Part shown: piece after piece, positions 21,001-30,000 of the stretch
Position numbering within the stretch: the stretch's first letter is position 1
Layout of the letters: every line of letters starts with the position of its first letter
From: Ylistrum balloti
Taxonomy: Eukaryota
Length of the DNA: 64,000 nucleotides
Assembly: GCF_031769215.1 (NCBI RefSeq)
Contig: NW_026782306.1
Span: forward strand, 310,001-374,000
Direction: 5' to 3'
Made by a program: the position numbers

Positions 21001-24000
21001 CAACAATGTTTAGATTGCACAATGTAACACATATTGTCGTATACTATGTCAACAACATCTAGATTACACAATATAACACATATTGTCCTATTCTATGTCA
21101 ACAATGTTTAGATTGCACAATATAACACATATTGTCGTATTCTATGTCAACAAGATTACACAATGTAACACATATTGTCGTATACTATGTCAACAATGTT
21201 TAGATTACACAATGTAACACATATTGTCGTAAACTATGTCAACAATGTTTAGATTACACAATGTAACACATATTGTCGTAAACTATGTCAACAATGTTTA
21301 CATTACACAATGTAACACATATTGTCGTATACTATGTCAACAATGTCTAGATTGCACAATGTAACACATATTGTCGTATTCTATGTTAACACAATGTAAC
21401 ACATATTGTCGTATACTATGTCATTACACAATGTAACACATAGATGTTAACAAGATTACACAATGTAACACATATTGTCGTATTCTATGTGTAACACAAT
21501 GTTCAACAAGATTACACAATGTAACACAAGATTACACAATGTAACACATATTGTCCTATTCTATGTCAACAATGTTTAGATTGCACAATATAACACATAT
21601 TGTCGTATACTATGTCAACAAGATTACACAATGTAGCACATAACAGTTAATCAAATTTGGAATTTTTAAGAAACATTCTTCATGCATGTTTACCTATATA
21701 AAGATAATCGCAAAATTTAATGTAGGTGAACTAGGCTGAGTCGATAAGTTAATCTCTGGAAATGTAATCTTGAGCTGAATCTAGATCGATCTTTTGGTTT
21801 AAATCAATTCTTTCTATAGTACATGACGTCATATTTCGGCTGTAATATTCTGTGGGCATGTTAAATACTTATCGTTGCTTCTTTCCGATACATAATGAGA
21901 TATGGCGTAGATAACAAGTAAATAAAAAAAATGACAAAAGTCAAATTTGCCTTATTCTGTATCTATCAAGTTCAATACCTTATTCCTCTCGTATTCTTTG
22001 CTGTAGGCCTCGAATATCTGGGCATTATGTATTGCAATCCCACAGAACGTTAAGTATGTCGCCAGCATCTGAAACAACAAATGAAGTCAGTTACTAATGA
22101 TGAGGGTGTTCATGATGTAAACAATGAAGAATGTCTAATCGACTTTGAAGTAATTCATTAAGTAGAAAGAGTGTTTGTCGAGCTCTACAAGACAGCTGTC
22201 GGATGCAGTTTAAATAATATGTTGGCACTGCTGTAACCAATTTGCATTGAACGGTGCAATACACTTTTTTGTCATTTGTGCAATCTTACGCTTACTTTCC
22301 GGAACACCTGGTCTTATTCACTTTGTACTTTTTAAGACCACACTGAGGAATACTGCCGATTATCCCAGCTGAGTATATGTACCACACTGAGGACCACTGT
22401 CGATTATCCCAGCTGAGTATATGTACCACACTGAGGACCACTGTCAATTGTCCCAGCTGAGTATGTGTACCACACTGAGGACCATTGTCCATTATCCCAG
22501 CTGAGTATGTGTACCACACTGAGGACCACTGTCGATTGTCCCAAATGAGTATGTGTACCACACTGAGGAATTATCCCAGATGAGTATGTGTACCACACTG
22601 AGGAATACTGTCGATTGTCCCAGCTGAGTATGTGTATCACACTGAGGACCACTGTCGATTGTCCCAGCTGAGTATGTGTACCACACTGAGGAATACTGTC
22701 GATTGTCCCAGCTGAGTATGTGTATCACACTGAGGACCACTGTCGATTGTCCCAGTTGAATATGTGTACCACACTGAGGAATTATCCCAGCTGAGTATGT
22801 GTACCACACTGAGGACCACTGCGATTATCCCAGCTGAGTATGTGTACCACACTGAGGAATACTGCGATTATCCCAGCTGAGTATATGTACCACACTGAGG
22901 ACCACTGTCGATTGTCCCAGCTGAGTATGTGTACCACACTGAGGACCACTGTCGATTGTCCCAGCTGATTATATGTACCACACTGAAGAATTATCCGAGC
23001 TGAATATGTGTACCACATTGCAGGAATAAGTTTCCATCTGTGGCGTGTTACATTGAAGGAATAAGTTTCCATCTGGGGCGGGTTACATTGAAGAAATAAG
23101 TTTTCATCTGGGGCGGGTTATATTGAAGGAGTAAGTTTTCATCTGGGGCGGGTTATATTGAAGGAGTAAGTTTTCATCTGTGACGGGTTACATTGAAGGA
23201 GTAAGTTTCCATCTGGGGCGTGTTACATTGAAGGAGTAAGTTTCCATCTGGGACGGGTTACAATGAAGGAGTAAGTTTTCATCTGTGGCGGGTTACATTG
23301 AAGGAGTAAGTTACATTGAAGGAGTAAGTTTTCATCTGTGGCGGGTTACATTGAAGGAGTAAGTGTCCATCTGGGGCGGGTTACATTGAAGGAGTAAGTT
23401 TTCATCTGTGGCGGGTTACATTGAAGGAGTAAGTGTCCATCTGTGGCGGGTTACATTGAAGGAGTAAGTTTCCATCTGTGGCGGGTTACATTGAAGGAGT
23501 AAGTTTTCATCTGTGGCGGGTTACATTGAAGGAGTAAGTTTCCATCTGGCGCGGGTTACATTGAAGGAGTAAGTTTTCATCTGTGGCGGGTTACATTGAA
23601 GGAGTAAGTTTTCATCTGTGGCGGGTTACATTGAAAGAGTAAGTTTTCATCTGTGGCGGGTTACATTGAAGGAGTAAGTGTCCATCTGGGGCGGGTTACA
23701 TTGAAGGAGTAAGTTTTCATCTGTGGCGGGTTACATTGAAGGAGTAAGTTTTCATCTGTGGCGGGTTACATTGAAGGAGTAAGTGTCCATCTGTGGCGGG
23801 TTACATTGAAGGAGTAAGTTTCCATCTGTGGCGGGTTACATTGAAGGAGTAAGTTTCCATCTGGCGCGGGTTACATTGAAGAAATCACAACGAGCGTTAT
23901 TATAGATTGTATTCTTTGTTATGAAATAAAGGTGTTTTGTAACATACTTAAAATACAACATCCCATTCCATACATCTCTAGCGACCAGACAAGTCTGTGT

Positions 24001-27000: not shown

Positions 27001-30000
27001 AATGTAACCCGCCCCAGATGGAAACTTACTCCTTCAATGTAACCCGCCCCAGATGGAAACTTATTCCTTTAATGTAACCCGCCCCAGATGGAAACTTATT
27101 CCTTCAATGTAACCCGCCCCAGATGGAAACTTATTCCTTCAATGTAACCCGCGCCAGATGGAAACTTATTCCTTCAATGTAACCCGCCCCAGATGGAAAC
27201 TTACTCCTTCAATGTAACCCGCGCCAGATGGAAACTTATTCCTTTAATGTAACCCGCCCCAGATGGAAACTTATTCCTTCAATGTAACCCGCCCCAGATG
27301 GAAACTTACTCCTTCAATATAACACGCCCCAGATGGACACTTACTCCTTCAATGTAACCCGCGCCAGATGGATACTTACTCCTTCAATGTAACCGGCCCC
27401 AGATGGAAACATGACATCTATTTCTAGTTCAAACATCAGCCTTTATTCTCGATATTTAACGACAGTTCAATCTTTTTGATAATAAAAACATACGTTTTTC
27501 GAGTCTTTTTACTCCCTCATATTCTGTAGTTTTCATAAACTTCTTTTCCCAAAACTCTCAACGATGACCAACCTGGGTCTGTTGTCAAGCACCATCTTAC
27601 CTTTTCATCGTCTTTGCTGAAACCTTCACATGACCCGGTCTTGTTAACAACCTGGGCCACACCCACAATGTCGTTGTCCGAGTTCCGAATGGGCATACAG
27701 ATGATGGACTCTGTGACGTAGCCTGTTATTCGGTCCACCTCGTCATTGTACCGGGGGTCCTGCAAAGAATATGATATGTGACTTTAGTTAAAATCATGTT
27801 TAAAATGCAAATCCTTCCGTTTATGGAAAATGTTTTATTTTTGGTGGTAGATGGTCGTAAATGTCATTCGCGACCCTTTGACCCTTTGACTATGTGATAC
27901 CAATTCCTTTACTGGTAAAAATAGTCTTATGTGTCACTTACGACCTTCTGTCCTATGTGTCACTCACGACCTTCTGTCTTATGTGTAACTTACGACCTTC
28001 TGTCTTATGTGTCACTCACGACCTTCTATCTCATGTGTCACTCACGAACTTCTATCTTATGTGTCACTCACGACCTTCTGTCTCATGTATCACTTACGAC
28101 CTTCTATCCTATGTGTCACTCACGACAGGTTATGAAGCGTGCTGATGTAATTGGTAGAGCCATGGTCAACAACACTTGAGACCCAGGTTTGAATCCTCTC
28201 GCAGATATATTCTACCAGACTAGCCATGGTTATTGGGTGAATCATCAGAGACGACAAAAAATATCACACATTTGTATTTCGGTTCTGATGATGAAAACTA
28301 TTTGTCTGTGGGTTGGATTCGTTCCATTTCCTGACAGCTGAGGAAGGAAAAGTGACGATAGGTATAATTCTGTATTTGTAGAAACTTTAAGATATAAATA
28401 ATAGCTTTACTAGCAGATTCTTTGAAATAGAATATGGTATACTATCACGATTAATTTAAAACTTTTACCCTAAATTTAACGTTTATAACCTCGTACCACA
28501 GTCGTACAATCAGTTATTAACTTGTCACTTCCATTACGCTGTTCCATCAGATATACACAATATTAACTACCCTCCACCTTCAGATGACGTCTCTTTAAGT
28601 AATACATTACTGATGATAAAAGTTGCTTTGTTTTTAAATTGTTTACAAGACAAGTGCTTGCGTTAAGTGTCTTGTTACAGTACAGAACCGACAACGACTT
28701 TATGTGGGTGTAACACTGATGTATACTACAAATGGTTCCCAGCAGGACAACACGCCTAATCACATTATACTGACAATAAAACCGCTCGTAGTGGCAGATA
28801 AATTCTAATCTTTAAGCACCGATAAGTAATTTCCAGTTTTAGAGATTCTGGTTTGTCTCCTCAAGTACACAGAACCCAAAAGTTTTCACAAAGTACATTC
28901 CAATTAACACCAAAAATGAGGCAGTGCCATATTAGGGCAATACATATATAGATCAGCTGTGCGACAGTTTGGTATTTGTTTATAAATCTGGGAAAGATGT
29001 TAAATGTAAAAAAAAGTTGTTTGTACACAAATAAAAACATTGTTGATTAAGTATTTTTGAGTGAGGCGCCATATATAATAATTTAAAACGCTGTGGGCAA
29101 AAATCCCTACATAACAGGTCCATTTGATCCTTAACATCAATGAGGGCCCTAGGAGGAAGAAGCAGTTGTAAAGCGCATTTGCTATTTGGCTCTACTGTAT
29201 CTGATTCTCTGGTATTGATAAGTTATTTTTCTCCGTCTGTGTTTTGTAAAATCTTGTAAATTTCTGATAAAATAATACTGACAGTTTTATATAAAACAAA
29301 ACGCGAGTTTGTAATTCGAATTGCCAGAAAACTTGGATGTTTAGAAGATGTTTTTACATTAGACTATTGTCATGTTGCTTGTTTTGTAGGTGGAATAATA
29401 AAAAAATGTTCCAAGCTGTTGACGGATCTCAAGAAGAAGGTGCGTTTGTCGAATACAAGAACCAATACCAGACCAATACGGACAACGAACAGAAACGGAA
29501 CACAACATCAGTGAAGAAAGGAAAGAGAAATTACTGCTGATAAGATGATATTGTCTGAACGAATTGTAAGGAAATACAGCATTCAGAAACAAAAAGAATT
29601 TGGTTGGTCAAAAGATTCTGATTCAGAATTTAATCTTCAAATGAGAAATGTGATTTCACTATCATAAACAAGATTCTACACGGGAAAGAAAATGTCAGAA
29701 AATTAAAAATCAAGCAATTTATACACGTATTTGTTTGTGTAAGGCTAGAAGAAATATCTACAAGAAGGTAAATCATTGATCTTTCCTCCTCCGATGTAAA
29801 AAACCTATGTCAGGATGACATATAGCATCGTTTTTCAGATGTCGTTAACCGCCGCCCTGCATTGACCTTTTCTCAGTCTACATCTCGGAGTTCCACTGGA
29901 GCTACAGAGCTGAAAATCAGCGCGCGATGTGGGATATAAAAGTCGGCAAAGTGTTAAATTCTTGCCACAATACATAAACACTCTCTCCTAAATTCTAAAT

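What the first reader, a model, noticed from the sequence alone, without database searches (positions are those of the whole stretch)
23015..27410. Two inverted arrays of the same 35-bp unit bracket 3.1 kb within one intron
Seen: array A (~25 copies, 23015-23883) and array B (~12 copies, 26983-27410) are reverse complements, both inside the 22069-27600 intron. In pre-mRNA they could form about 430 bp of near-perfect duplex in many registers. Interpretations (inference): (a) a Foldback-type transposon with modular tandem-repeat TIRs and non-coding cargo; (b) an inversion or duplication; (c) a dsRNA that is ADAR-edited or shortens the effective intron. No transposase ORF is visible inside. The interior contains other repeat relics.
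Basis: partly seen in the sequence, partly recalled or inferred. Interest (0 to 1): 0.68.

Follow-up and report, generated by a model that had tools for sequence, protein, structure and literature searches.

The report
Minisatellite split by a small intronic inversion
Two opposite-facing blocks of one 35-base repeat lie in an intron of a scallop-like phosphodiesterase gene; they look most like one repeat array broken by a small local inversion, not a jumping element, which makes this an ordinary structural quirk.

Summary
Array A (23012/23015-23881, 24 full units plus two partial ones) and array B (26974/26980-27410, 12 units plus a 17-nt partial) carry the same 35-bp unit in opposite orientation. 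They lie 3.1 kb apart inside the intron 22069-27600 of a minus-strand PDE11A-like gene of a scallop-like bivalve. The Foldback-transposon reading fails its tests. There is no target-site duplication and no homology outside the arrays in any of six arrangements. The outer ends differ in unit phase, no alignment register stands out, and 0 of 36 interior ORFs match Pfam. The two arrays share six minor unit variants but differ sharply in make-up. The two sharp ends (A right, unit position 12; B right, unit position 19) fit together with 6 nt missing, and the other two ends are degenerate. My best reading (about 0.5) is that one array of about 37 units was split by an inversion of 23882-27410. Inverted block duplication is the main rival. 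A 408-bp hairpin in the pre-mRNA is predicted (-773 kcal/mol) but its effect is untested. No eukaryotic genome, long reads or RNA-seq were available, so genome-wide copies, polarity and RNA editing stay unchecked. Interest is low.

The parts
23012..23881 (+). Array A: 35-bp minisatellite, unit GTTAC...GGCGG on the + strand (antisense in the pre-mRNA). 24 full units, an 18-nt partial unit at 23292-23309 and a terminal 12-nt partial unit. The left end is degenerate and merges in phase with the 44-bp array. The right end is sharp, at unit position 12.
26974..27410 (-). Array B: the same 35-bp unit on the minus strand (sense in the pre-mRNA). A 17-nt partial unit (27410-27394, unit positions 19-35) plus 12 units. 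The right (outer) end is sharp. The left end is degenerate: the X-drop end is 26980-26983, with a weak tail to 26974.
23882..26973 (.). 3.1-kb unique interior. It has no Pfam-recognisable ORF and only small repeat relics: 24939-24962/25084-25107, 26814-26859/26887-26930, and 26246-26296, which is similar to 7141-7192.
23882..27410 (.). Segment inferred to have been inverted (interior plus array B). Breakpoint 1 is inside the array (23881|23882). Breakpoint 2 is at 27410|27411.
   Evidence: inference
22337..23011 (+). Neighbouring 44-bp minisatellite (about 15 units, including three 35-nt deletion variants). It runs without a spacer and in phase into array A. The first 16 nt of unit A1 are of the 44-bp type.
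22069..27600 (-). Host intron, 5532 nt, of a PDE11A-like gene. 36% of it is tandem array.
27601..27759 (-). Upstream exon (GAF domain, aligned to residues 272-323 of the Pecten maximus protein P0001). Its donor lies 190 nt from array B.
21979..22068 (-). Downstream exon (30 codons, MLATYL...ERNK), 94% identical to P0001 over the 33 aligned residues (324-356). Its acceptor lies 268 nt from the 44-bp array.

Best explanation
The two arrays are the halves of one 35-bp minisatellite of about 37 units. That array lay in the + orientation directly after the 44-bp minisatellite. A local inversion of about 3.5 kb (23882-27410) broke it. One breakpoint fell inside the array, with about 6 nt lost, and the other fell in unique intron sequence. 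After the split, the left half went on homogenising and expanding on its own. The thing is not mobile and has no cargo. It is a neutral rearrangement in an intron that is 36% tandem repeat, within a window that is 26% tandem repeat.

As a by-product, the pre-mRNA (minus strand) now carries both orientations of the unit. It can fold into a hairpin of about 400 bp that loops out 3.1 kb.

Shown: the anatomy, the lack of transposon hallmarks, the variant sharing and divergence, and the predicted duplex. Inferred: the inversion event, its polarity, and any RNA-level consequence.
For: (1) Inverted homology is confined to the arrays. Six flank arrangements (inner, outer, TIR around A, TIR around B, two direct) score 15-20 against shuffle means of 17-19. 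The window self-BLAST gives 37 A-B pairs and no flank pair.

(2) There is no flanking direct repeat of 5 nt or more within +/-12 nt, for three candidate left ends paired with 27410.

(3) The end anatomy fits an inversion. A-right stops abruptly at unit position 12 and B-right at position 19, so they join with positions 13-18 missing. A-left and B-left are degenerate: unit A1 has 6 mismatches and B12 has 5, against a mean of 1.2 for A9-A24.

(4) A-left looks like a natural boundary. The 44-bp periodicity runs in phase into A1, whose first 16 nt are of the 44-bp type.

(5) B inherited a block of many units. Six minor variants are shared (positions 5, 15, 21, 31, 32, 35) and B has 9 distinct unit types among its 12 units.

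(6) B is not a copy of any present block of A. Thirteen collinear registers give 88.6-91.4% and none stands out. Only 1 unit type is shared.

(7) The arrays diverged after separation. T30 is 15/24 in A against 0/12 in B (Fisher p=0.0003). T23 is 12/24 against 0/12 (p=0.003).

(8) Among about 24 arrays in the window, each with its own unit, this is the only unit that occurs twice. That points to a local origin.

(9) The duplex: cofold gives -772.8 kcal/mol, and 408 of 437 nt of B pair with A.
Against: There is no outgroup or second haplotype, so neither the event nor its polarity is observed.

The phase fit of the sharp ends (a gap of 6 out of 35) would arise by chance in roughly a fifth to a third of cases.

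The B-left end is fuzzy: X-drop places it at phase 26-29, and only a weak tail reaches 35. The 'whole number of units' argument is therefore soft.

B's commonest unit is identical to A2 at the far left of A. B as a whole resembles A1-A8 more than the A-right units it would have adjoined. This needs an 'old edges, young core' array. Otherwise it favours the mirror model, in which A plus the interior was the inverted segment.

Homology between the 44-bp and 35-bp units is not significant beyond the first ~16 nt (183 of 2000, 164 of 1000 and 534 of 1000 shuffles reach the observed score).

The strand-skew test was uninformative.
Confidence: 0.5

Rival explanations
1. Inverted block duplication. 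A block of at least 6-12 units was copied in reverse orientation into a site 3.1 kb away, by replication template switching or templated repair of a break. Both arrays then turned over independently.
For: The same facts fit this as fit the inversion: homology is limited to the arrays, there is no target-site duplication, and minor variants are shared. B resembles the old-type units A1-A8, as expected if it was copied before A-right expanded.
Against: No register of rc(B) on A stands out (88.6-91.4%), and only 1 unit type is shared, so extra turnover must be assumed. An inserted copy should have two sharp ends, but B-left is degenerate. The order of variants in rc(B) is the reverse of that in A-left. 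The near fit of the two sharp ends (12 to 19) would be a coincidence.
Confidence: 0.2
2. Foldback-type (or other TIR) non-autonomous transposon. Its arms are tandem 35-bp units of unequal length and its middle domain is non-coding.
For: The arms are made of tandem subrepeats, they are unequal in length, and the middle is non-coding. This is the overall shape described for FB elements and Tetris (PMC4079207, sections 10 and 17 read).
Against: There is no target-site duplication. There is no outer flanking domain, and the outer flanks are unrelated. The outer ends are in different phases (4 and 19). The left arm merges in phase into a different 44-bp array that has no partner on the right. There is no collinear register and no further copy in the 64 kb.
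Confidence: 0.08
3. Two independent insertions, in opposite orientation, of an array-carrying mobile element such as a Helentron-derived HINE or a tandem-repeat MITE, as known in oysters and clams.
For: In bivalves, short satellite-like arrays are often carried by HINEs (PMC7492417, passages read; PMC3879986, search listing only). A dispersed 50-bp motif lies just left of the 44-bp array, at 22289-22337, and has two more copies in the window.
Against: The array flanks share nothing, either directly or inverted. No microsatellite, conserved left flank or ~60-bp right flank is seen next to A or B. The dispersed motif is absent near B.
Confidence: 0.05
4. Assembly artefact: a 3.5-kb segment was flipped, or a chimeric fold-back read was incorporated.
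For: The region is highly repetitive, and no reads were available to check it.
Against: Fold-back chimeras give true palindromes that include unique sequence. Here only the arrays are inverted, their unit make-up differs significantly, and the window has no N.
Confidence: 0.07

Closest known systems
Foldback transposons (Drosophila FB; Tetris of D. virilis, PMC4079207)
   Same: Long inverted arms built of tandem subrepeats, arms of unequal length, and a non-coding middle.
   Different: No outer flanking domain, no 8-10 bp target-site duplication, outer ends out of phase, and no sign of further copies in the window. One arm is continuous with an unrelated neighbouring array.
Inversions with a breakpoint in tandem-repeat DNA (evolutionary breakpoints are enriched in tandem repeats: PMC1794428, abstract seen in a search listing only)
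   Same: One breakpoint lies inside a minisatellite. The result is two arrays in opposite orientation whose sharp ends fit together, with no transposon hallmarks.
   Different: The scale is very small (3.5 kb, within one intron). The ancestral state was not observed here.
Tandem-repeat-carrying Helentron/HINE and MITE elements of bivalves (Cg_HINE, PMC7492417; DTC84, PMC3879986)
   Same: Short satellite-like arrays scattered through a bivalve gene region.
   Different: The defining flanks (subTIR, internal IR, microsatellite, 3' palindrome) were not found next to A or B. The two arrays share no flank.
Intronic inverted-repeat pairs that form long dsRNA and are ADAR substrates (inverted Alu pairs in primates: recalled, from no call; ADAR homologues in molluscs: PMC6651903, abstract seen in a search listing)
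   Same: Both arms lie in one intron of one transcript. The predicted intramolecular duplex is about 400 bp.
   Different: The arms are tandem arrays, so many registers can pair. No editing or small-RNA data were examined.

Membership tests
Foldback transposon | Long terminal inverted repeats containing tandem subrepeats | tested here: met
   Arms of 870 and 437 nt made only of 35-bp units; 431-nt arms 91-92% complementary.
Foldback transposon | Matching outermost terminal domains at both ends | tested here: not met
   The outer ends are at unit phases 4 and 19. The outer flanks align at shuffle level (score 15 against a mean of 17.1). The left arm merges into a 44-bp array that has no partner.
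Foldback transposon | Target-site duplication (8-10 bp in Tetris/FB) | tested here: not met
   No direct match of 5 nt or more within +/-12 nt, for 3 candidate left ends paired with 27410. In 200 random pairs of places, 99 gave a chance match of 5 nt or more.
Foldback transposon | Multiple dispersed copies in the genome | not testable with these tools
   No eukaryotic genome collection was available. Within the 64-kb window there are 0 further copies.
Helentron-derived HINE with central tandem repeats | Left flank with subTIR, internal IR and microsatellite; ~60-bp right flank with subTIR and palindrome (PMC7492417) | tested here: inconclusive
   Flank-to-flank local alignments are at shuffle level. 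No microsatellite is seen in the flanks. SubTIRs of 11-12 nt would escape this test.
Inversion-split tandem array | The two sharp ends fit in unit phase and the other two ends are natural array edges | tested here: met
   A-right is at position 12 and B-right at position 19, a gap of 6 nt. A1 and B12 are the most diverged units. The fit is weak as statistics.
Inversion-split tandem array | Uninverted ancestral arrangement in an outgroup or other haplotype | not testable with these tools
   No scallop genome, reads or population data were at hand.
Intronic inverted-repeat dsRNA (ADAR/Dicer substrate) | Both arms in one transcript and a long stable duplex | tested here: met
   Both arms lie in the intron 22069-27600. 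Cofold gives -772.8 kcal/mol with 408 of 437 nt paired, against about -300 for 5 shuffles. This is a prediction only.
Intronic inverted-repeat dsRNA (ADAR/Dicer substrate) | A-to-G clusters in RNA-seq or small RNAs from the arms | not testable with these tools
   No transcriptome data.

The most novel reading that the evidence does not exclude
The rearrangement is kept because of what it does to the RNA. Flipping 12 units into the sense orientation gives the PDE11A-like pre-mRNA two things. The first is a hairpin of about 400 bp that loops out 3.1 kb and brings the splice sites of a 5.5-kb intron closer together. The second is six intact GTAAGT donor-like motifs in array B, which starts 190 nt downstream of the true donor. 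Together these could tune splicing, or they could feed ADAR or small-RNA pathways.
Probability: 0.05. Interest if true: 0.55.

Novelty: new member of a known kind. Interest (0 to 1): 0.22.

Why it matters
This mainly serves as a caution. A pair of inverted tandem arrays with a non-coding middle looks like a Foldback transposon, but here it fails every test that separates a mobile element from a local rearrangement. If the inversion is confirmed, it is a clean small example of a minisatellite serving as a breakage site. It would also show the two halves of an array drifting apart after separation (T30 is 15/24 in A against 0/12 in B). In addition, it gives a natural 400-bp intronic inverted repeat in a bivalve gene that could be used to look for ADAR editing. 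It does not open a long-standing question.

Tried and rejected
Strand-composition test for a flipped interior. AT and GC skew wander in sign along the gene, so there is no polarity signal to compare with.

Homology of the 44-bp and 35-bp units. A global in-register alignment was reached by 183 of 2000 shuffles. Local alignment of a unit dimer against the 44-bp array was reached by 164 of 1000 shuffles (unit A2) and 534 of 1000 (consensus unit). Other arrays score just as high. Only the first ~16 nt of A1 are clearly of the 44-bp type.

Best-register search, collinear and mirrored: no register stands out.

Rfam at E<=1 on 19000-31000 gave one sub-threshold snoRNA match outside the feature. No tRNA was found in the window.

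ESM Atlas with the 80-aa interior ORF gave no usable hit.

Pfam on 36 interior ORFs gave nothing.

Full-text search for a 21-nt stretch of the monomer found 0 papers. A search for Pectinidae, minisatellite and intron papers gave nothing specific.

The bacterial promoter/terminator scan is irrelevant for a eukaryotic intron and is disregarded.

I recalled a widespread bivalve repeat that resembles 24924-25260, but I did not verify it and do not rely on it.
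Full report
**Source and host gene.** The window has no N and is 35% G+C. I do not take it for human. The ORF 27520-27783(-) carries a GAF-domain match. Its best relatives are PDE11A-like proteins of the scallops Pecten maximus (73% identity) and Mizuhopecten yessoensis (72%), followed by oysters and gastropods.

tblastn of four of these named reference proteins maps about a dozen minus-strand exons between 1567 and 27759. Pecten scores best (sum of 1035 bits against 934, 737 and 725). 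The window is therefore from a scallop-like bivalve that is not identical to either reference.

I searched with one exon-bearing ORF only. I mapped the other exons one by one on the window.

**Checking the observation.** TRF finds the 35-bp unit at 23015-23312 (8.5 copies) plus 23310-23881 (16.3 copies). It finds the reverse complement at 26978-27410 (12.4 copies).

Cut into units, A has 24 full units, an internal 18-nt partial unit (23292-23309) and a terminal 12-nt partial unit. rc(B) has a 17-nt partial unit followed by 12 units.

The repeat finder gives 431-432-nt arms that are 91-92% complementary in many registers. The unit occurs nowhere else in the 64 kb (0 hits outside the arrays at up to 9 substitutions).

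The intron is exactly 22069-27600. The donor GTAAGA starts at 27600 on the minus strand. The acceptor reads TTTCAG|ATG, with its G at 22069. Two corrections apply: the gene is on the minus strand, and the duplex is about 92% matched rather than near-perfect (longest exact run 47 nt).

**Surroundings.** 25.7% of the window lies in about 24 minisatellite arrays, each with its own unit. The 35-bp unit is the only one present twice.

Array A follows a 44-bp array (22337-23011) without any spacer and in phase. The first 16 nt of unit A1 are of the 44-bp type (ACCACA...GGAAT). The 44-bp array itself contains three 35-nt deletion variants. Beyond those 16 nt, homology of the two units is not significant.

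**Tests of the transposon reading.** Features defining a Foldback element were taken from the Tetris paper (PMC4079207, sections 10 and 17 read). They are an outer flanking domain, tandem repeats in the arms, a middle domain, and 8-10-bp target-site duplications.
- Only the tandem-repeat arms and the non-coding middle are present here.
- There is no direct repeat of 5 nt or more within +/-12 nt of three candidate left ends paired with 27410.
- Six flank comparisons (inner, outer, around A, around B, two direct) all score at shuffle level.
- The outer ends lie at unit phases 4 and 19.
- None of 13 collinear registers of rc(B) on A stands out (88.6-91.4%).
- 0 of 36 interior ORFs of 35 aa or more match Pfam.
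- The HINE flank features described for oyster arrays (PMC7492417, passages read) were not seen. SubTIRs of 11-12 nt would escape my test.

**Evidence from the repeat units.**
- The arrays share six minor variants (positions 5, 15, 21, 31, 32, 35), and B has 9 unit types among its 12 units. B therefore descends from a block of many units of a common, already heterogeneous array. It did not arise by fresh amplification of one unit.
- The arrays nevertheless differ strongly in make-up. T30 is 15/24 in A and 0/12 in B (p=0.0003). T23 is 12/24 against 0/12 (p=0.003). A15 is 3/24 against 6/12 (p=0.036). Only one exact unit type is shared.
- A-right and B-right end abruptly, at unit positions 12 and 19. 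A1 and B12 are the most diverged units, with 6 and 5 mismatches. The mean is 1.2 for A9-A24, 3.0 for A1-A8 and 2.6 for B.
- If 23882-27410 is flipped back, the sharp ends join into one array of about 37 units with 6 nt missing. That array starts at the in-phase junction with the 44-bp array and ends in a degenerate edge. It has old-type units (GGAAT, TATATT, GCGT) at both edges and a homogenised core. This 'old edges, young core' pattern is one I recall from satellite arrays; the recollection comes from no call.

**Weaknesses of the inversion reading.**
- The phase fit is weak as statistics.
- The B-left end is fuzzy: X-drop places it at phase 26-29.
- B as a whole resembles A1-A8, not the A-right units it would have adjoined. 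The mirror model (A plus the interior inverted) is therefore not excluded, and inverted block duplication followed by turnover also remains possible.
- The skew test for polarity failed.
- No outgroup, reads or genome-wide search were possible.

**Consequences.** In the pre-mRNA, rc(B) comes first, 190 nt after the donor, and rc(A) comes 3.1 kb later. Cofolding gives -772.8 kcal/mol. For comparison, the two arms folded alone give -105.5 and -100.4, and five shuffles of A give -286 to -313. 408 of 437 nt of B pair with A.

Such a hairpin could be edited by ADAR. Homologues are reported in molluscs (PMC6651903, abstract in a search listing only). It could also shorten the effective intron. Neither effect was tested. 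In the sense orientation B carries 6 GTAAGT motifs, and A carries none in that orientation.

**Verdict.** This is a real but ordinary structural feature. It is most likely a small inversion that split a minisatellite (0.5). Rivals are inverted block duplication (0.2), a Foldback-like element (0.08), an assembly artefact (0.07) and two element insertions (0.05).

Noticed in passing
window 1400-1697 (minus-strand gene): A 45-bp minisatellite (6.6 copies) repeats the last 36 nt of a PDE catalytic-domain exon plus the first 9 nt of the intron (...AACAGTGAG|GTATGTAAC). The 5' splice site is therefore present about six times. One copy reads GATATGT, so its GT is lost. The unit is 15 codons long and open in frame (HFNHAVTILNSEVCN). 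Use of a downstream donor would insert 15-aa repeats into the catalytic domain.
   Followed up: partly
whole window: 25.7% of the 64 kb lies in about 24 unrelated minisatellite arrays (periods 17-103 bp) in the introns and flanks of one gene. No shared flank motif is evident.
   Followed up: partly
window 22289-22337 (+), 35895-35957 (-), 62451-62513 (-): A dispersed motif of about 50 bp (GACGCTTACT.TTCCGGAACA...CTTGTACTTTTTAAG) has three copies. One of them directly abuts the start of the 44-bp array. It may be a relic of a mobile element that seeded that array.
   Followed up: partly
window 12911-14422: A 103-bp unit is repeated 14.7 times at 99% identity, which suggests a very young array. 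It lies about 95 nt from the exon at 12817-12608.
   Followed up: no
window 17208-17600: A G-rich 26-bp array (AGGGTGGGGTCGGGAGG...) continues in degenerate form to about 17560. It is a possible G-quadruplex former on the + strand.
   Followed up: no
window 27800-64000: No exon matching residues 1-232 of the Pecten PDE11A-like protein was found upstream at E<=1. No Pfam hit was found among the ORFs of 75 aa or more that I submitted from this stretch; tandem-array ORFs were left out. The 5' exons are either beyond the window or too short or too diverged to detect.
   Followed up: no
window 60739-60905: An imperfect 167-nt palindrome: the segment aligns to its own reverse complement at 74%.
   Followed up: no
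window 24924-25260: The interior holds a two-copy relic spaced 145 bp apart (24939-24962/25084-25107), followed by a GACG-rich stretch. It reminded me of a repeat common in bivalve genomes. That is a recollection only; the Atlas gave no hit.
   Followed up: partly
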